The notes below the pieces were generated by a model. That model was not told the origin of the DNA, did no database searches, and worked only from the letters and a program-made list of their open reading frames with translations. Shown piece after piece: positions 1 through 7,924 of a stretch of DNA of 26,676 nt. Numbering within the stretch: the first letter of the stretch is position 1; each line of letters starts with the position of its first letter. Origin of the DNA: Bdellovibrionia bacterium (GTDB lineage: Bacteria > Bdellovibrionota > UBA1018); the NCBI GenBank assembly GCA_039916675.1, contig JBDSKY010000203.1, forward strand, positions 1 to 26,676, written 5' to 3'. A program made the position numbers and the translations under genes.

Positions 1-77
1 TCCCGAATAGTAAGGTGAACATCTTTCACAGCGCATACCGCACCATAAGATTTATTGAGGCCCTGTAATTCAAGCAT
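1..77 (-). CDS. ABC transporter ATP-binding protein, 5' fragment (runs off window start)
   Basis: Manual translation from ATG at 77 gives MLELQGLNKSYGAVCAVKDVHLTIR, the typical first strands of an ABC ATPase before Walker A. In-frame TAA just upstream. Not in the ORF track. Confidence 0.75.
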   Translation of the reverse strand, partial: MLELQGLNKSYGAVCAVKDVHLTIR

Positions 78-144
78 TGACGCGACTTATAACAGACTTT
101 GCTCGAATAAAAACCGGTTTTTTCCCCACAGCAAGGTCAAAAGA

Positions 145-393
145 CTATTCTTTCGAATGGCTCGCTGCTGCTGAACCCGCAGAGGACTTATGTCTCTCCT
201 CAGACTTCGTAGAAGTACTAGTGGGTTCTCCGCTAAGAACCTTAGACTTGACATCTGTTTTCGCTCCACAGGCGGATTGTGTCTCACCGGTTTCTCCGGT
301 TGAGGTAGGTTCCGTAGCGAAGGAAATAACTCCCCAAGTAACTCCGATAAATCCAAGGACAAGACCAAATACTGTTCTTAATGAAGCCTTCAT
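145..393 (-). CDS. Small secreted, Ser/Thr-rich, probably disordered protein; positional analogue of Bdellovibrio Bd0108 (hit)
   Basis: Strong RBS (AGAAGGAG) before ATG 393. Sec signal peptide ending S-F-A at residue 26. The 56-aa mature part has 21 Ser/Thr, no aromatic residues and one Cys. Lies directly downstream of the RHS gene at the end of a tad cluster. Confidence 0.7.
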   Translation of the reverse strand: MKASLRTVFGLVLGFIGVTWGVISFATEPTSTGETGETQSACGAKTDVKSKVLSGEPTSTSTKSEERHKSSAGSAAASHSKE

Positions 394-442
394 AAAAACT
401 CCTTCTATGATTTACACAAAATAAAATACATTAACTAAGCCA

Positions 443-2143
443 CTAAAAAGCTAAAGTAACTCCAGCTGGACCAATAATATCCAATAACTCTTGAAACTCT
501 TGAGTAACCTGGGAAGCGATTTTTCGTCCAGACGTGCTTTCGACTTTCTTAATATCGCCACTATTAGTGTAGCTTACCGTAATGGTTCCGACCTTGGGAT
601 CGGTAATTTCTATCGGTTTAGAATTCTCGTTGTACTTAAAAGTAATCTCATGACGGTCCTGATCGACTATGCCATGAATTCTTCCAACCGAGTCATAAAC
701 CAATTTTACAGCCTTAGACTGCGAGTTTTTCGCCGTGACAAGATTGCCCTTGCCGTCATAAGAAAATTTAGACCAACTGACTTCCTTTTCCTTACCATTT
801 TCTCGTGTCTTTTTACTTACAGATTCGACTTTACCGACCTTCGAATCATAAGTCAGGTCAGTGGTTTCTTCAGGGGTAACTTTTTTAACGACATGACACT
901 TGTTATCGTATTTAAACGTCGTAACCTGCCCACCCTGCTTAATGGATTCAGGAAGACCACAGGCTTCGCTATAAACTGTCTCCGAAGTCTCGCCGTCTAG
1001 AACGGTTACCAGTTTTTCTGTCCATTCCTCACCGTCTGCTTTTCTTTTATTAAAATACTCGTATTTGCTATCAGAAACCAGCTTACCGTCAGCACCCTTA
1101 ACTTTTACCGTTGCAGTGTAACGATCCTTATTTTCATTGGGGTAATCATAGGCAGTAATCGTTCCATCCCGGTCCTTAATACTCTTAACGCTTTCGAACT
1201 TATCTTTGCCATAATACTCAATGCCCATAGTGGTTTTGTCACCATAGGAGATTGAAATCAGATTGTGTCGTCCAAGTGAATCATACTTATAAGTAAATGT
1301 ATTTTTATCCACATCTACGCTACTCACCAATTCATCCTGGGCATTATAAGTGTATTTGGCGCGCTTCTGATTTTCACCTTCAATATCAGTCAACAACCCC
1401 TTGACATTAAAACGCAATATTATCTTTCTATTGAAATTATCCAGTAGCTCTTTGTAGCCGTTTTTATTATTGATCGAGATAAAATTTCCATTTTTATCAG
1501 AGATTTTTACCAAACGGCCAGATTCATCAAATTTTTCAACACGGCCTGAATCGAAATCTCTCTGATATCCATCGGCTATCTTAGTGATAAATTGATAACT
1601 AAATCGATTGGATTTGAGCTGAGTTCCTTTAGTTAACTGACGAGCCTTGATTTTACCTTGGGCCCGGAATTTTTCCCACTGGTCATTTCTAAAAGTAGCG
1701 TCGGTTTTGAGCTGTTGTCTATAGGAGGTCAGATGTTCCCCGCTTCCGACTACTCCGGAGGCTTGGGCAATTTTAACAATTTCATCTACTGCCTTATCCA
1801 GTTCGGCGGCATTGAATGAGAAGGGAATAAATCGATTTTCAGCGCCGCCACCGTACTCGTGCACTACTACGCTGCCATCAGGAGCTACAGAAAGAAAAAC
1901 TTCATATTCATTGCCCCAACCCCAGCCAAAAACACCTTTGAACGGAGTTTTTGAATTGTAAACCCTTTCTATCTTTGGATCGAATCCGCCCGAATAGACG
2001 ATATCCGTATAACCCACAAAGAAATTCCCGTTTTTCAGGCTTACATTTGCCCAGGTTGGCCCCGCGGACCAAAGGCTTAGCAATCCAGTAATTATCAAAC
2101 TTTTAAAAAACCAGCTTCTAAAAAACGTATTTTCAGTTGTCAT
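443..2143 (-). CDS. Secreted RHS/YD-repeat protein with DUF6531-like N-terminal domain (Bd0109-like)
   Basis: Signal peptide (..PTWA). NVSLKNGNFF..ERVYNS..FGWGW motif typical of the RHS N-terminal DUF6531 domain. Many YD-type repeats (YTYNAQDEL, FSYDGKGNL, VYDSVGRI). 566 aa. Confidence 0.88.
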   Translation of the reverse strand: MTTENTFFRSWFFKSLIITGLLSLWSAGPTWANVSLKNGNFFVGYTDIVYSGGFDPKIERVYNSKTPFKGVFGWGWGNEYEVFLSVAPDGSVVVHEYGGGAENRFIPFSFNAAELDKAVDEIVKIAQASGVVGSGEHLTSYRQQLKTDATFRNDQWEKFRAQGKIKARQLTKGTQLKSNRFSYQFITKIADGYQRDFDSGRVEKFDESGRLVKISDKNGNFISINNKNGYKELLDNFNRKIILRFNVKGLLTDIEGENQKRAKYTYNAQDELVSSVDVDKNTFTYKYDSLGRHNLISISYGDKTTMGIEYYGKDKFESVKSIKDRDGTITAYDYPNENKDRYTATVKVKGADGKLVSDSKYEYFNKRKADGEEWTEKLVTVLDGETSETVYSEACGLPESIKQGGQVTTFKYDNKCHVVKKVTPEETTDLTYDSKVGKVESVSKKTRENGKEKEVSWSKFSYDGKGNLVTAKNSQSKAVKLVYDSVGRIHGIVDQDRHEITFKYNENSKPIEITDPKVGTITVSYTNSGDIKKVESTSGRKIASQVTQEFQELLDIIGPAGVTLAF

Positions 2144-2276: not shown

Positions 2277-3140
2277 TTACACGTCAATTTTTACAATCTG
2301 CATGATCACAAAAAACCCGACTGCTTCCAACAGGAATATGCCCATTACAATAAGCCATCCAACAGGAGTCGTAACCAGAGGCCGCATAAAATCCGGGTCA
2401 GTTTGAAAGAACACCACCGCCAAAATAGGGGGAATAGCCATGACAAAAACCCCTTGATAAAATCCTTGCGCAGTTAAGGCCGAAATCTTGTTCTCTACCT
2501 TAATTCTTTCTCGGATAGTCGAAACGATGGTATCAAAAGTTTCCGCCAAATTTCCGCCGGTCTCCTTAAGAATATTGATCGAAGTCACAAACATTTCAAC
2601 ATCATCACTTTTTATCCTCTTCGAAAGATTCAAAAAAGCGTCTTCCAAAGATACCCCCACACGGTTTTCACTTAGGACTAACGTAAACTCCTGCTGAATC
2701 GGATTTGGCATTTCCTGGGTTACTAGGCCTAGGGATTGGACTACAGAAAGACCTGATTTCATACCATTGGACATCAAGGAAAGAGCATCCACCATCTGCA
2801 TTACAAACTTTTTCACCCGTTTATTATACATATAGTTGACGATCGGCTTAGGAAGCTTCCAACCTATTATGGTTCCAATAATGGCCAAGGGAATTCCTGG
2901 AAACAGATTGGGCAAAAAAGCCAAAAAGATCAGTGTTCCTAATCCAAAACTTATAGAGAACAATCCAAGCAGGATACGTTGTGGGGGAATATCAATAAAC
3001 ATCATACCTAGACGTTCAACAATATAGTCGCGTGTTCCTAAAGACTGAAATCTCAGCCAATCCAGGAAGCGAGTGCTGTAAATATAGGAAGCTAAAAAGA
3101 CGGATAAACCAAAAAGTAAGATACCCCCGATTTTCATCAT
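2277..3140 (-). CDS. tadB: Tad pilus inner-membrane platform protein TadB (T2SS F family)
   Basis: QMVDALSLMSNGMKSGLS..EF..V..E...G.SLEDA and LKETGGNLAETFDTIVSTIRERIKVENKISALTAQG motifs; TM helices; follows the ATPase gene. Confidence 0.93.
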   Translation of the reverse strand: MMKIGGILLFGLSVFLASYIYSTRFLDWLRFQSLGTRDYIVERLGMMFIDIPPQRILLGLFSISFGLGTLIFLAFLPNLFPGIPLAIIGTIIGWKLPKPIVNYMYNKRVKKFVMQMVDALSLMSNGMKSGLSVVQSLGLVTQEMPNPIQQEFTLVLSENRVGVSLEDAFLNLSKRIKSDDVEMFVTSINILKETGGNLAETFDTIVSTIRERIKVENKISALTAQGFYQGVFVMAIPPILAVVFFQTDPDFMRPLVTTPVGWLIVMGIFLLEAVGFFVIMQIVKIDV

Positions 3141-3155
3141 AATAAGTAAACCGCC

Positions 3156-5330
3156 TTATTTTGCAGAAAACAGTCCCCGTGATATTTTCATCCCCTTGGC
3201 TTCCATTTCCTCTACAAACTTCGGGATAAATCCGGTGGGAACAAACCTTCCGATGATTTTTCGCTTCTTATCTAACCCTTCTTGTTTGTAAATAAAGATG
3301 TCCTGAAGACTAATGACTTCGCCTTGCATCCCTACAACTTCGGTAATGTAGGTTACCTTTCTAGTTCCATCGCTCATTCTAGATTGTTGGATAATTAACC
3401 CGACGGCGGAGGCTATATTTTCCTTAATTGCTTTAGCCGGCAATCCGAGACCGGCCATCATCACGAGAGTCTCCAGACGGGCAATCGCTTCTCGAGGATT
3501 ATTGGCATGCAGAGTCGTCAGAGACCCGGAATGCCCGGTATTCATCGCTGAAAGCATGTCCAAGGCTTCCCCACTTCGACACTCACCCACCACAATTCGA
3601 TCGGGGCGCATTCTGAGACAACATTTAATGAGGTCCCGAATGCTAACTTCCCCTTCTCCTTCAATATTCTTCGGTCGTGATTCAAGTCGCACAACGTGTT
3701 CTTGACCCAATTGAATTTCGGCCGAATCCTCAACCGTAATAATTCGTTCTGACGCAGGGATAAAATTCGAGAGAACATTTAGGAGTGTAGTTTTTCCAGA
3801 TCCCGTACCTCCTGAAACAACAATGTTTAGTTTGGCTTCAACGCAGCATCGCAGAAAATCTGCAATTTCTTCTGTCATGGAGCCAAAAGTGACCAAATCC
3901 TTATATTCAATTCTTTTCTTGGGGAATTTTCTAATAGTAATAGTCGGACCGCGCAAAGAGAGGGGCGGAATAATAACATGCACTCGCGAACCATCTTGAA
4001 GTCTTGCGTCCACGTACGGAACCTTTTCATCAACTCTGCGCCCCAAAGGAGTAACTATTCTTTCGATGACATTCATCATTTGAGATTCACTCGAAAAGTT
4101 AACCTTGGACAACTGGGGCTTACCGGCTTTTTCGATGTAAATTTGGTCTCTGGCGTTCACCATAATTTCAGTCACAGAATCGTCTGCTAACAAATCCTCC
4201 AAGGGCCCCAATCCTAAAGCTTCGTCTAACACTTCCTTTAACATTTGTGCCTTCAGCTCACGAGTGGTGAGAAGGGAACTAGTGTCTTCAGATGCCAGAA
4301 TATCCAGCACACCCTTTTGCGTCTTTTCCCGTAAGATGGCTCGCTGTTTGGGGTCGCTCGTATCGATATTCATCTTTTTCAAATCCATCTGCTCTACCAA
4401 GGATTTGTGAATTCGTAGTTTCATTGCGGTCCAAGGATCCAAAGGAGCTGCGCTACTCCGAGCGCCAGGGCCTCCAGAAGGGTCCTTTCCACCATCGGCC
4501 CCACCGCTCAACAAATCCTTTGCTCCTGCGCCTGCTGCCGCCTTCGCAACTACTCCAGTAGGTTTTTTTAATTTAGCTAAGTTTTCATACAAATTAGTCT
4601 GCTGAATCTTACGAACTATATCGTGATAAGAGCGAGAGATTGGCGCCCCTGCTGCTGCAATACAGAAAGGAATACTTTTAGCCAGAGAACCGTCACAGGT
4701 TGCTACATCCTCTGGAATCGCAGCAAAAATGGCTCGATTCAGATTCTTTTGAATCATTTGTGGGGTAATAATATTGCTCTGTGAATACCTATTAACGACA
4801 ATCTGAACCATTTCCGGCGGGAAGAGTAATTCCTGAATTCTGGCCAATACTCTTTTTGTTTGGTTAATTACGATGACATCTGCCGTCGTAACAACAAAAA
4901 TGGCTGTGGAGTATTCAAAAGTTTTTAATGCCCAGGGGTCCGTACCATTCCCACAATCCACTACGACCAAATTAAATACGTTGGGTGCAGCCTTAAGAAA
5001 TCTGCCCAAGCCGTCAATGTCGATATCTCGAGCGAGAATTGCGTCTTTAGGTGACCCTATGTAACTGTAACCTGCGGGCGCATTTACCATGAAGGGAGCC
5101 AATGACTTAGGATCAATGGCGCCGCCTTGTAATTTCGAAACATCAACGATGCTCTTAGGCGGGTTTTGTCCCAAAATTATGTTTTGATCTCCTAGACTCC
5201 CAAGGTCCAGATCAATAATCAGTGGTCTTTGTTTAAACTCTTGAAGATACGCAATGGCAAGATTAGCGGCGAAGACACTCTTCCCCACTCCCCCTTTTCC
5301 TCCTACTACGGCTACAATATGACCGGCCAT
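3156..5330 (-). CDS. cpaF: CpaE/TadZ-like MinD-type ATPase fused to CpaF/TadA pilus assembly ATPase
   Basis: N-terminal deviant Walker A GGKGGVGKS and Walker B VVVDCG. C-terminal GGTGSGKTT, Asp box TVEDSAE, RMRPDRIVVGECR and His box TGHSGSLTTLHAN. The domains are joined by a Gly/Ala linker. RBS AAGGA. Confidence 0.93.
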   Translation of the reverse strand: MAGHIVAVVGGKGGVGKSVFAANLAIAYLQEFKQRPLIIDLDLGSLGDQNIILGQNPPKSIVDVSKLQGGAIDPKSLAPFMVNAPAGYSYIGSPKDAILARDIDIDGLGRFLKAAPNVFNLVVVDCGNGTDPWALKTFEYSTAIFVVTTADVIVINQTKRVLARIQELLFPPEMVQIVVNRYSQSNIITPQMIQKNLNRAIFAAIPEDVATCDGSLAKSIPFCIAAAGAPISRSYHDIVRKIQQTNLYENLAKLKKPTGVVAKAAAGAGAKDLLSGGADGGKDPSGGPGARSSAAPLDPWTAMKLRIHKSLVEQMDLKKMNIDTSDPKQRAILREKTQKGVLDILASEDTSSLLTTRELKAQMLKEVLDEALGLGPLEDLLADDSVTEIMVNARDQIYIEKAGKPQLSKVNFSSESQMMNVIERIVTPLGRRVDEKVPYVDARLQDGSRVHVIIPPLSLRGPTITIRKFPKKRIEYKDLVTFGSMTEEIADFLRCCVEAKLNIVVSGGTGSGKTTLLNVLSNFIPASERIITVEDSAEIQLGQEHVVRLESRPKNIEGEGEVSIRDLIKCCLRMRPDRIVVGECRSGEALDMLSAMNTGHSGSLTTLHANNPREAIARLETLVMMAGLGLPAKAIKENIASAVGLIIQQSRMSDGTRKVTYITEVVGMQGEVISLQDIFIYKQEGLDKKRKIIGRFVPTGFIPKFVEEMEAKGMKISRGLFSAK

Positions 5331-5357
5331 GACTTGAGTCCTTTCGTACTACGCCAC

Positions 5358-7046
5358 TTACTTTACTTTTACTCTGAAGTTTCTCTTCATATCGTCAGTA
5401 CCCTCTGAAGCATTTTCGATAATTTGAGGTGTTACAAAGATAACAAATTGAGACTTTTTCTTTCGATAGGCTTTGGATCTAAGAAGGGTAAACAAAGGAT
5501 CCGTACCTTGAGAAAAGGCCCCTGGCGAAGGATCATCTTTATTGAAATCGGTGCCTATATCACTTGAAATAACCCCTGCGACGGCTGCACTTTCGCCAGA
5601 TCTCACGTAAATGGTTGTCTTCACTTTATGTGTCGCGGTAATAGGGGGCGCCCCGGTAGCAGGGGCACGGCCTACCAAATTGGTTTGGTTCATTTCTACG
5701 TTAAGTTGGATATCTTCGCTCTGACCCAATATCAAAGGAGTTACTGCGGCGCTCAATCCGACGTCCTTGGTGGCTGCAGTAACTTGGCCATTTTGGCCAG
5801 CCTGATTATAAGGAATTTGCGTCGCCTCAGTAAGAGTTGCGGGTTGGCCACTTCGGACAATGAGTGTTCCTGTCTTAAGAATCCGGGCATAACCTGCTGC
5901 CTGAGAAGAGGCCAATTTAGGAAGAAGAGACGAAAGTGTACCACTAAAGGACGCTCCAGTTGATGCGCCAGCGGCACCTGTTTGGCTTTGTCCGACTTGA
6001 ATCTGAGGATCAGAAGTGAAACCCGGCTGCCATTTAAATCCAAATACCTTATTATAATCTTTGGACAACTCTACGAAATGAACAGTGACTCGAACTAATT
6101 TGTCTGTTTTTTGCGGCGGTGGCGGATTTATTACAATAAAACTCTCAATCAGTTTTCGAGGCGGCGCTCGTTGGACAGTGGGATCTTTTTCCAATAGGCT
6201 ACCTGGTTTCAAATCCGGAAGATAAAGATTGGCCAACTTAAACGCTCGATTAGACTGGTCCATATTGTCAACGGTTCCTTCTAGAAAAATTGTCCCGTTC
6301 ACAACCCGAGTCTTTACATTCGGAGCCCCCGCTGCATTCACATCGTCTTGGATCCTCTTAGCCATTACTTTCATAGCCAAAGGGGAAAGAGTGGTAAGAT
6401 TTAAGACAAAATCCGCGTAACTTTTGTCTTGAATGACCGTCAGCAATCTCCCGTAATCTATAGGTACGATTACTTCACCTTCGATTACCACCTTCGGACC
6501 TACGATCCGAATATCCAATCCCTCCACGTCCCTCAACAGATCTCTTATTTCGTTTGCGATCCTTAGTAGATTTGTCCCGGTTACTCGCACCATGAAAATT
6601 AATTTTAAACTGCCGTCGTTGTCCCGGACAGTAACCGTTGTCTCACCGGCCTTCAGCGGCTTAAAAACGAGTTGTCGTTTCTCTCCGATTTTGACTAGAG
6701 TCGTAGTGACGATTTGGGGATTCCCGTAACTAATCCCGTTTGCACCTGCATTGGCTTCGAAATCCAAATCAACCGCTTTATCTTCCCCGGTGGTTAGAAG
6801 TAAACGCCTTCTATCCGCTTCCCCTTCCGACTCATCATATGTTAGTTTAGATCTCTGATAACGATTTCGCTTTTTGGGAACCAATGTCGGCGGTGCATCC
6901 ACAGGACCATCAGCCGCCTCGGAGATAATATTCAAACTATAAATTAGGATGCTAAGGAGCAAGATTAGGCAAACCCGTCCCTTAAGGACCTTGCCCAAAG
7001 CAGACTGTTTCCAAACTGCATCCCGGAGTTTTTCAACCCATTTCAT
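5358..7046 (-). CDS. cpaC: Tad secretin CpaC/RcpA with pilus-secretin N domain and BON-like domains
   Basis: N domain (GNPQIV..LVFKPLKAGETTVTV); BON-like segments (IRIVGPKVVIEGEV; VKTRVVNGTIFLEGTV); secretin C-terminal motifs (VRSGQPATL, PLFTLLRSK..FVIFVTPQII). ATGA overlap with cpaB. Confidence 0.88.
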   Translation of the reverse strand: MKWVEKLRDAVWKQSALGKVLKGRVCLILLLSILIYSLNIISEAADGPVDAPPTLVPKKRNRYQRSKLTYDESEGEADRRRLLLTTGEDKAVDLDFEANAGANGISYGNPQIVTTTLVKIGEKRQLVFKPLKAGETTVTVRDNDGSLKLIFMVRVTGTNLLRIANEIRDLLRDVEGLDIRIVGPKVVIEGEVIVPIDYGRLLTVIQDKSYADFVLNLTTLSPLAMKVMAKRIQDDVNAAGAPNVKTRVVNGTIFLEGTVDNMDQSNRAFKLANLYLPDLKPGSLLEKDPTVQRAPPRKLIESFIVINPPPPQKTDKLVRVTVHFVELSKDYNKVFGFKWQPGFTSDPQIQVGQSQTGAAGASTGASFSGTLSSLLPKLASSQAAGYARILKTGTLIVRSGQPATLTEATQIPYNQAGQNGQVTAATKDVGLSAAVTPLILGQSEDIQLNVEMNQTNLVGRAPATGAPPITATHKVKTTIYVRSGESAAVAGVISSDIGTDFNKDDPSPGAFSQGTDPLFTLLRSKAYRKKKSQFVIFVTPQIIENASEGTDDMKRNFRVKVK

Positions 7047-7876
7047 CTCTTCAATTGAGCCCCTTTTACTCGACTCATCTCTGCACCTAGAACATCGGCC
7101 ATCACCGTAGCGGGAAAACTCAATCGCTCGGAATCATCATTGTTACGCAATGAGAGTGTCAATGCATTATCTCCATTGGCCATCACCAATGCCAAAGCTT
7201 GAGCCTGGGAAGGCTCCACCTCTAAAGTAACTGAATTATAACTAAAGTCCTGAGATAGGGGTCTTACTCTTTCCTTTCCCCCAGAACCGTCAGATTCAAT
7301 AATACGGGCCACGTTATTTGTGACATAACGACCAATAGATAAAATAATGACATCTTGTAGGACGGTCTTTGCAATTTTGTTTTCTTTACCGCCACCTGCC
7401 TCTAACACTGCAATCAGATCTACCCGATCTCCTGGCTTGATTAGCTTAGAGACACCTGAAGTTTCATTTACCGGAATAGATATTGCTCTTCTTCCCGGGG
7501 CAATTTGAGGTGCCAGCCCTGTCCTCATGCTCGGTTCGGTAATTTTATTGTAGGTAATCTGTTCACCCTTACGGATAGGGACGATTGCGACGACTCCTGC
7601 CAAACCCTTCAAGGCCTTGGAGGTTTCCTTGTCTTGCTCTTTCTTTTCCAAAGAGATCGCAGCAGGTTCTAAAAATCTTTTTGGAATTAACTTTAGCTCA
7701 AGTGAAGTTTCATTGAGCGTCTCCATTTCCTTAATGTCTCGTCGCGCTACAATCACGAGGATCTCAGTCCCAAATTTTTTCTTGGCTTCTTCTTCGATAC
7801 TGCTGACATAGCTCTGGACGAAAAAGACTGCAATCCCGGCCATCACTAAAGCTAAGGTAAGTGCTCTATTATTCAT
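7043..7876 (-). CDS. cpaB: Flp pilus assembly protein CpaB/RcpC (SAF domain)
   Basis: N-terminal TM; VARRDI SAF motif; GRRAISIPVNETSGVSKLIKPGDRVDLI; LQDVIILSIG; VTLEVEPSQAQALAL..LTLSLRN. Confidence 0.93.
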   Translation of the reverse strand: MNNRALTLALVMAGIAVFFVQSYVSSIEEEAKKKFGTEILVIVARRDIKEMETLNETSLELKLIPKRFLEPAAISLEKKEQDKETSKALKGLAGVVAIVPIRKGEQITYNKITEPSMRTGLAPQIAPGRRAISIPVNETSGVSKLIKPGDRVDLIAVLEAGGGKENKIAKTVLQDVIILSIGRYVTNNVARIIESDGSGGKERVRPLSQDFSYNSVTLEVEPSQAQALALVMANGDNALTLSLRNNDDSERLSFPATVMADVLGAEMSRVKGAQLKR

Positions 7877-7924
7877 ATTTAATAACCATTATCGCGAAAT
7901 CATGAACGGTTTACTCCTAAATAT

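What the first reader, a model, noticed from the sequence alone, without database searches (positions are those of the whole stretch)
145..393. Tiny secreted disordered protein in the position of the Bdellovibrio hit gene (Bd0108)
Seen: 82 aa with a strong RBS and signal peptide. The 56-aa mature chain has 21 Ser/Thr, no aromatics, a repeated EPTST motif and a single Cys (C42), and sits next to an RHS gene at the end of a tad cluster. Known: in B. bacteriovorus the small secreted, intrinsically disordered Bd0108 is adjacent to the RHS protein Bd0109, interacts with it, and affects pilus extrusion and the switch to host-independent growth. Inference: this is a functional analogue diverged beyond easy sequence detection, and annotation could miss it in favour of the overlapping spurious ORFs.
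Basis: partly seen in the sequence, partly recalled or inferred. Interest (0 to 1): 0.75.

Follow-up and report, generated by a model that had tools for sequence, protein, structure and literature searches.

The report
Fast-evolving Bd0108-like small secreted protein
This is a real gene for a tiny, exported, unstructured protein that occupies the same slot beside the RHS/pilus genes as the Bdellovibrio "hit" switch protein Bd0108; it shares no detectable sequence with Bd0108, and the field has taken Bd0108 to be confined to some Bdellovibrio species.

Summary
ORF 145-393(-) encodes 82 aa, with AAGGAG 5 nt before the ATG and a signal peptide ending ISFA|TE. The 56-aa mature chain has 21 Ser/Thr, no aromatics, EPTST twice and one Cys (C42).

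It is a real gene. Against its only sequence relative, dN/dS is 0.26 in this frame and 0.45-1.4 in the other five.

A same-strand small signal-peptide ORF starts within 300 nt after the RHS orthologue in 81 of 89 Bdellovibrionota loci. Shuffles give 22 of 1780. It also follows the RHS gene in 14 of 20 loci from more distant families. Almost every mature chain keeps at least one Cys; 24 of 28 in the window's order have exactly one.

In the HD100-sized genome the same slot holds Bd0108, and the five genes upstream are colinear with the window.

Sequence membership fails. NCBIfam hit_Bd0108 does not match the window protein and hits one genus only. Profile-profile comparison equals reversed controls. 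The CXXC motif and the NPGEDPNEA motif are absent.

Binding to the RHS protein is inferred only; the co-fold gave no verdict.

Verdict: a positional and architectural counterpart of Bd0108, a new variant of a known kind. Papers from 2014 and 2023 partly anticipated it. Interest is moderate.

The parts
145..393 (-). Small gene (82 codons plus stop): secreted, low-complexity, single-Cys protein; positional counterpart of Bd0108
   Evidence: ORF list. dN/dS 0.26 against P0002/L115 in this frame, 0.45-1.4 in the other five. Syntenic ORF in 81/89 and 14/20 loci.
399..404 (-). Shine-Dalgarno AAGGAG, 5-nt spacer to the ATG
   Evidence: Read directly from the sequence. An RBS-like motif precedes nearly all the syntenic ORFs.
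316..393 (-). Signal peptide, residues 1-26 (MKASLR, hydrophobic core, ISFA|TE)
   Evidence: Own hydropathy and -3/-1 rule script. Ala at -1 is at least 90% conserved in alignment A2. SignalP was not available.
253..315 (-). Conserved N-terminal part of the mature chain, residues 27-47, containing TGETGETQSAC-GAKTD; candidate short linear motif
   Evidence: About 18 of 21 residues are identical to P0002 here, while the C-terminal half is much less conserved. The order-wide pattern is C-x-[AG]-x-x-D, with G[ED] upstream in 12/28 against 3.4 expected.
268..270 (-). Codon of the single Cys (C42)
   Evidence: A Cys is present in essentially every syntenic small protein: 24 of 28 in the window's order have exactly one.
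443..2143 (-). RHS/YD-repeat protein, orthologue of Bd0109 and presumed partner
   Evidence: Pfam RHS_repeat and DUF6531. 33.5% identity to the HD100 protein, in colinear order. Model pLDDT 89.6, with beta repeats to residue 536 then one C-terminal helix. Best structural matches are T6SS Rhs cores. Found in 279 of 301 phylum genomes.
2277..7876 (-). Tad-type pilus genes upstream (T2SSF/TadB-C, CpaE-CpaF fusion, secretin, CpaB-like), colinear with HD100
   Evidence: Pfam. tblastn against the HD100-sized genome gives the same order and strand at 34-46% identity.

Best explanation
ORF 145-393(-) is an expressed-type gene, probably co-transcribed with the RHS gene 49 nt upstream. It encodes a Sec-exported, intrinsically disordered periplasmic protein of about 56 residues. 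It is the fast-evolving positional counterpart, most likely the orthologue, of the Bdellovibrio hit-locus protein Bd0108. By analogy it would bind the adjacent half-length RHS shell protein (the Bd0109 orthologue) weakly, through the conserved N-terminal stretch around its single Cys. In that way it would tune how the RHS protein acts on pilus extrusion and retraction, and hence on signalling of prey contact. Shown: the gene is real and under purifying selection; the signal peptide and the unfolded composition; the conserved position; the conserved Cys. Inferred: orthology with Bd0108, binding to the RHS protein, and any role in pilus control or in a lifestyle switch.
For: The frame is supported by dN/dS 0.26, with substitutions at codon positions 17/17/37. 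The locus is colinear with the 3,782,950-bp genome, whose slot holds a 101-aa protein with ASA|DE cleavage and CRECIA, ending in Q. That protein matches NF053838 hit_Bd0108 at 102 bits and fits the description in PMC3818213 and PMC4267844. A small signal-peptide ORF follows the RHS orthologue in 81/89 loci (1.2% of shuffles) and in 14/20 loci of distant families. Cys is retained in nearly all of them. The N-terminal mature segment is the conserved part, as reported for Bd0108 residues 24-66. No confident fold is predicted: Atlas pLDDT is 0.40 and co-fold partner pLDDT is 29-43. The RHS partner models as a confident Rhs-type beta spiral about half the size of a full cocoon, with no toxin tip.
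Against: No sequence homology to Bd0108 can be shown. NF053838 gives no hit at E<=0.1, and hhalign of mature chains gives 0.1%, the same as reversed controls. CXXC and NPGEDPNEA are absent. The co-fold with the RHS protein gave no verdict (median 0.02). There are no RNA or proteome data; the holders are rhizosphere and soil DNA runs. The signal peptide and disorder rest on heuristics and model confidence, not on dedicated predictors. Six of 20 loci from distant families lack such an ORF.
Confidence: 0.6

Rival explanations
1. A real small periplasmic protein that shares only the slot with Bd0108. Unrelated small secreted genes would have been recruited repeatedly downstream of the RHS gene. 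The window protein would then do something other than modulate the RHS protein or pilus, for example act as a redox-sensitive periplasmic factor or a disulfide-linked accessory of another envelope component.
For: There is no detectable homology between lineages: 55 of 81 mature chains are singletons at phmmer E<1e-3, and hhalign equals controls. Only one sequence relative exists among 1.84 billion representatives. Cys number differs by clade: 1, 2, 3 or 4.
Against: Position, strand, size, signal peptide, low complexity and a Cys near the N-terminus recur across more than 90 loci. Identity decays gradually, from 62% to about 20-30%, as RHS identity falls from 100% to 65-50%. That is the expected behaviour of a disordered orthologue. 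There is also a weak 15-bit C-terminal match between one same-order protein (L110) and Bdellovibrio Bd0108.
Confidence: 0.28
2. Spurious ORF: low-complexity sequence that happens to be open, with the true feature being the overlapping 115-aa (+) or 93-aa (-) ORF, or no gene at all.
For: Several frames are open here, and also in the relative L115. Only one pairwise comparison is available for dN/dS.
Against: dN/dS is lowest in the claimed frame (0.26). The antisense frame that shares its wobble positions gives 0.45, and the other frames give 1.0-1.4 and contain stops. The claimed frame has an RBS, a signal peptide and a conserved syntenic ORF on the RHS strand.
Confidence: 0.04
3. An Rhs immunity-type gene. 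The gene directly downstream of an rhs gene classically encodes the antidote to the Rhs C-terminal toxin.
For: It lies immediately downstream of an RHS-repeat gene.
Against: The RHS protein has no toxin tip. Repeats run to residue 536, followed by a single helix, and the C-terminus is conserved across the phylum (consensus). The small protein is exported and unfolded, which is unlike cytoplasmic immunity proteins.
Confidence: 0.03
4. A Flp-type pilin or pseudopilin of the Tad system.
For: It is a small protein with a hydrophobic N-terminus inside a Tad locus.
Against: No Pfam family matches, Flp_Fap included. The hydrophobic core ends in a signal peptidase I type S-F-A site, with no G/XXXXEY processing motif, and the mature chain is polar and lacks the pilin hydrophobic helix.
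Confidence: 0.02

Closest known systems
Bd0108 of Bdellovibrio bacteriovorus HD100 (hit locus; NCBIfam NF053838 hit_Bd0108, 'predatory lifecycle switch protein')
   Same: It is the gene immediately downstream of the Bd0109-type RHS gene, on the same strand, at the end of a colinear Tad-type locus. Both have a Sec signal peptide and a short mature chain with no predicted fold. In both, the N-terminal part of the mature chain is the conserved part, and Cys is present.
   Different: There is no sequence match to NF053838 and none by profile-profile comparison. It is 82 aa rather than 101 aa. It has one Cys instead of CXXC and lacks the NPGEDPNEA motif. It is Ser/Thr-rich with no aromatics, whereas Bd0108 has three. 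Binding to the RHS protein and any phenotype are untested.
BMS_0183/BMS_0184 of Bacteriovorax marinus SJ, and the small signal-peptide gene arrays next to Bd0109 homologues in Bdellovibrionales MAGs (PMC4267844; PMC10469934)
   Same: These are small secreted proteins adjacent to a Bd0109 homologue with no significant homology to Bd0108, the same situation as here. A same-order genome in my sample (L109) also carries two tandem small signal-peptide ORFs.
   Different: Those reports are passing remarks without evidence of selection or conserved features. Here the window has a single gene, the contig ends 144 nt after it, and a conserved Cys-centred motif is defined.
Rhs toxin / RhsI immunity pairs
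   Same: A small gene lies directly after an RHS-repeat gene.
   Different: The RHS protein has no C-terminal toxin, and the small protein is exported and disordered.

Membership tests
Bd0108 / NCBIfam NF053838 hit_Bd0108 | Match to the family HMM above its 40-bit cut-off | tested here: not met
   The window protein gives no hit at E<=0.1, while the HD100-slot protein scores 102 bits. The best hit anywhere in the window's genome is 16.6 bits on another contig. The family hits 17 of 301 phylum genomes, all in one genus.
Bd0108 / hit locus | Gene immediately downstream of the Bd0109-type RHS gene, same strand, in the Tad-type pilus locus | tested here: met
   The gap to the RHS stop is 49 nt. 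RHS, TadB/C, CpaE-CpaF, secretin and CpaB are colinear with the HD100-sized genome.
Bd0108 / hit locus | Cleavable Sec signal peptide (periplasmic protein) | tested here: met
   There is a positive n-region, a 17-residue hydrophobic core and S-F-A|T. The Ala at -1 is at least 90% conserved in A2. This rests on heuristics only; SignalP was not run.
Bd0108 / hit locus | Intrinsically disordered mature chain | tested here: met
   21 of 56 residues are Ser/Thr, there are no aromatics, and 15 residues are charged. Atlas model pLDDT is 0.40 and pTM 0.18. Partner pLDDT in the co-fold is 29-43. This is prediction, not measurement.
Bd0108 / hit locus | CXXC motif | tested here: not met
   There is a single Cys at residue 42. 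Bdellovibrio-family proteins carry C-P/R/T-E-C.
Bd0108 / hit locus | Conserved N-terminal Bd0109-binding segment (residues 32-40, NPGEDPNEA) | tested here: not met
   The motif is absent. The window has a different conserved N-terminal segment, TGETGETQSACGAKTD.
Bd0108 / hit locus | Direct binding to the adjacent RHS protein | tested here: inconclusive
   Complex prediction gave no verdict: scores 0.02, 0.70 and 0.01, median 0.02.
Bd0108 / hit locus | Mutations give prey-independent growth and altered pilus extrusion | not testable with these tools
   The organism is known only as a rhizosphere or soil metagenome assembly.
Rhs immunity protein | Cognate Rhs carries a C-terminal toxin domain; the immunity protein is cytoplasmic | tested here: not met
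   The RHS model ends in repeats plus one helix, and its C-terminus is conserved. The small protein has a signal peptide.
Flp pilin (PF04964) | Flp motif and family HMM match | tested here: not met
   No Pfam family matches at E<=0.01, and the mature chain is polar.

The most novel reading that the evidence does not exclude
The RHS protein plus a small exported Cys-bearing disordered protein form an ancestral, phylum-wide control module of the predatory Tad-type pilus locus in Bdellovibrionota. Bd0108 would be just its Bdellovibrio-genus version. The small partner evolves so fast that it looks lineage-specific, and its only durable determinant is a reactive Cys near the N-terminus. That Cys is unpaired in the window's order and in a second large family, which would point to disulfide chemistry (a dimer, or an exchange with the conserved Cys pair of the RHS protein) rather than a folded interface.
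Probability: 0.25. Interest if true: 0.7.

Novelty: new variant of a known kind. Interest (0 to 1): 0.5.

Why it matters
Bd0108 is the classic genetic handle on the switch between prey-dependent and prey-independent growth in Bdellovibrio. A 2025 review calls it unique to a subgroup of Bdellovibrio species (PMC12428579), and comparative studies score other predators as lacking it (PMC11870529). This window, together with about 95 related loci, shows that the slot is filled almost everywhere the Bd0109-type RHS gene occurs. The occupant has the same architecture and a conserved Cys but no recognisable sequence. Three consequences follow. 'Absence of bd0108' calls based on homology are unreliable. 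The RHS/small-protein pair can be studied comparatively. The Cys becomes a concrete, testable residue. For the window itself it gives a function-linked annotation to a near-orphan gene.

Tried and rejected
- Co-fold of the mature RHS (33-566) with the mature small protein (27-82), using my own alignments, gave no verdict: runs 0.02, 0.70 and 0.01 against a mark of 0.32. It is not evidence either way.
- Sequence searches found almost nothing. The word-indexed search found only P0002, at 61% identity. Exhaustive phmmer over 1.84 billion representatives found P0002 plus one low-complexity 481-aa hit. Pfam and NCBIfam found nothing. ESM Atlas feature hits were generic 'secreted protein', MarB and YbgS clusters below 0.9, which are leads only.
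- hhalign of mature-chain alignments between clades (window's order, Bdellovibrio family, two others) gave probabilities of 0.0-0.4%, the same as reversed controls.
- The hypothesis of an obligatory disulfide between the small protein and the RHS protein is weakened. RHS orthologues carry even Cys numbers: 2, 4 or 0. Three same-order genomes with a Cys-less RHS still keep the single Cys in the small protein.
- No expression evidence exists. Only DNA runs from rhizosphere, soil, air and sediment metagenomes hold the sequence.
- The terminator and promoter scan of 1-2400 found nothing above the shuffled expectation. A weak hairpin at 467-449(-) lies inside the RHS 3' end. The 73-nt downstream spacer does not fold better than shuffles.
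- My first two attempts to search the genomes with family id 'NF053838.1' failed on the id format.

Full report
**1. What is there**

The minus-strand ORF 145..393 encodes 82 aa.
- AAGGAG lies at 399-404(-), 5 nt before the ATG.
- The N-terminus reads MKASLR, then a 17-residue hydrophobic core, then ISFA|TE.
- The 56-aa remainder has 12 Ser and 9 Thr, no Phe/Trp/Tyr, EPTST at residues 28 and 56, and one Cys at residue 42.

The upstream genes on the same strand are a 566-aa RHS_repeat/DUF6531 protein (49-nt gap), a T2SSF protein, a CbiA/ParA-T2SSE fusion and a secretin.

The window is a whole contig. It ends 144 nt after the ORF, inside the start of a PotA-like ABC ATPase gene.

**2. Is it a gene?**

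Sequence relatives are almost absent. The word-indexed search and an exhaustive phmmer over 1.84 billion representatives found only P0002 (81 aa, about 61-64% identity).

I codon-aligned its DNA (L115) with the window.
- dN = 0.26 and dS = 0.99, so dN/dS = 0.26, with substitutions at codon positions 17/17/37.
- Repeating the calculation in all six frames gave 0.45 for the antisense frame that shares the wobble positions.
- The remaining frames gave 1.0-1.4 and also contain stops.

The claimed frame is therefore the selected one. The longer overlapping ORFs (77..424 +, 87..368 -) are by-products of the composition.

The exact 82-aa protein already exists in the public protein collection and in the ESM Atlas. 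Gene callers did not miss it.

**3. Conservation by position**

The RHS protein has an orthologue in 39 of 41 relatives and in 279 of 301 sampled genomes of the phylum. Record titles of relatives call them Bacteriovoracaceae, Oligoflexia or Bdellovibrionota MAGs.

I cut out the DNA after the RHS stop in 89 loci with at least 380 nt available. I then looked for a same-strand ORF of 40-140 aa starting within 300 nt, scored on N-terminal charge, hydrophobic core, RBS and start codon.

| Test set | Loci or trials with such an ORF |
|---|---|
| Downstream of the RHS orthologue | 81 of 89 (including the window) |
| Mononucleotide shuffles | 22 of 1780 |
| Slices inside the RHS gene | 0 of 89 |
| Antisense strand, over a wider span | 8 of 89 |
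| Loci from families with weaker RHS matches | 14 of 20 |

Several of the 'missing' loci do carry a lower-scoring candidate. The last row is; the six without such an ORF belong to three families.

These genomes are kin, so the counts are descriptive, not independent trials.

**4. Shared features**

All these proteins have a signal peptide followed by a polar, low-complexity chain.
- Every mature chain has at least one Cys, except one frameshifted copy.
- In the window's order, 24 of 28 have exactly one.
- There the Cys sits a median of 14 residues after the cleavage site, in a loose C-x-[AG]-x-x-D context. Asp occupies +5 in 14 of 28.
- G[ED] lies within 15 residues upstream in 12 of 28, against 3.4 expected from shuffles.
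- The window reads TGETGETQSAC-GAKTD and fits this pattern.

Against P0002, the N-terminal mature segment (residues 27-47) is nearly identical, while the C-terminal half has diverged.

No fold is predicted. Atlas model pLDDT is 0.40, and partner pLDDT in the co-fold is 29-43.

**5. Relation to Bd0108**

One sampled genome is a single contig of 3,782,950 bp. In it the ORF after the 550-aa RHS protein has these features:
- it is 101 aa;
- it is cleaved at ASA|DE;
- it contains CRECIA;
- it ends in Q.

The RHS protein there has AFA|LV and ends in L. This is exactly what the Bd0108/Bd0109 papers describe. The small protein matches NCBIfam NF053838 hit_Bd0108 at 102 bits.

The five genes upstream of the window ORF are colinear with that locus at 34-46% identity. 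So the window ORF occupies the Bd0108 slot.

By sequence, however, it is not a member.
- NF053838 gives nothing for it.
- NF053838 gives nothing above cut-off anywhere in its genome.
- The family matches only 17 of 301 phylum genomes, all in one genus.
- Profile-profile comparison of mature chains between clades equals reversed controls.
- 55 of 81 mature chains are singletons at phmmer E<1e-3.

One lead exists. A 15-bit match links a same-order protein (L110) to the C-terminal KH..ND..T.RP.G stretch of Bdellovibrio proteins.

CXXC and the NPGEDPNEA Bd0109-binding motif are absent from the window protein.

**6. The partner and the mechanism**

The RHS protein models confidently: pLDDT 89.6 and pTM 0.83. 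It consists of beta hairpin repeats up to residue 536, with a helical insertion at 112-161 and one C-terminal helix.

It matches T6SS Rhs cores (E 2e-23; TMq up to 0.55 over about half of a roughly 1000-residue cocoon) and has no toxin tip. That excludes an immunity-protein reading for the small gene.

The most likely mechanism follows Bd0108/Bd0109 (PMC3818213, PMC4267844). The unfolded periplasmic protein binds the RHS half-shell weakly through its conserved N-terminal motif. In doing so it sets how much free RHS protein acts on pilus extrusion and retraction.

This step is inferred. My co-fold gave no verdict, and no RNA or protein data exist.

The conserved Cys suggests thiol chemistry. 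RHS orthologues carry even Cys numbers. Small proteins in the window's order and in a second large family mostly carry odd numbers: 1, or 3. The Bdellovibrio family carries 2.

Three Cys-less RHS orthologues still pair with single-Cys small proteins. So an obligatory disulfide between the small protein and the RHS protein is unlikely. A homodimer or another partner remains possible.

**7. Novelty**

The literature treats bd0108 as having no homologues and as unique to a subgroup of Bdellovibrio. It also scores other predators as lacking it.

Passing remarks already note small signal-peptide neighbours of Bd0109 homologues in B. marinus and in Bdellovibrionales MAGs.

The window gene is thus a new, single-Cys variant of a known kind of gene. 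The wider pattern is a modest but useful extension of what is known: near phylum-wide occupancy, a conserved Cys and extreme divergence. It is not a new system.

Noticed in passing
L067 (G188:C1:90095-92787); NF053838 pieces at G188:C1:90770-90964 and 90922-91062: In a complete 3.0-Mb genome of the Bdellovibrio genus group, the bd0108 gene is broken. The family HMM matches in two pieces with a TAA between them, and the ORF reads through to an unrelated 65-aa product after NPGEDPNEA. This could be a natural hit-locus mutation of the host-independent type.
   Followed up: partly
L057, L061, L065, L069, L072, L074 at about +480-500 nt after the RHS stop; also L078, L092, L093, L096, L109, L136: Many loci carry a second small signal-peptide ORF in tandem after the first, again with one Cys soon after the cleavage site (for example ...ANPKCSHRVAS... 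in the Bdellovibrio group). This resembles the 'arrays' noted in PMC10469934. The window contig ends too soon to tell whether it has one.
   Followed up: partly
window 78-122 (minus strand, between the small ORF and the ABC ATPase start at 77): This 45-nt spacer (AAAACCGGTTTTTATTC...GTCGCGTCA) is 43/45 identical in L115, although synonymous sites of the neighbouring small gene are near saturation (dS about 1). It may be a conserved promoter or operator for the PotA-like ABC gene. It does not fold better than shuffles.
   Followed up: partly
window 3156-5330 versus L116 (HD100-sized genome) 5868-7913: The CpaE/ParA-CpaF fusion aligns over 706 of 724 residues in one piece at 46% identity to the HD100-sized genome. 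The double-ATPase fusion is therefore shared with Bdellovibrio and is not peculiar to this MAG.
   Followed up: partly
RHS orthologues and small proteins of L001-L114: Cys parity tracks clade. Where RHS has a 2-Cys pair (window positions 395/416), the small protein has 1 or 3 Cys. Where RHS has 4 Cys at other positions, it has CXXC. Where RHS is Cys-less, it mostly has 4 Cys. There are only about four independent clades, so this is a pattern to test, not a result.
   Followed up: partly
L110:649-903(-) versus L060 and L066 small proteins: A weak local match (15 bits, E about 1e-4 in a set of 81) links KHNNNDEITKRPEGSSGG of a same-order protein to KHGRINDDTTYRPAGTSS of Bdellovibrio Bd0108-type proteins. 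It is the only cross-clade sequence link seen.
   Followed up: partly
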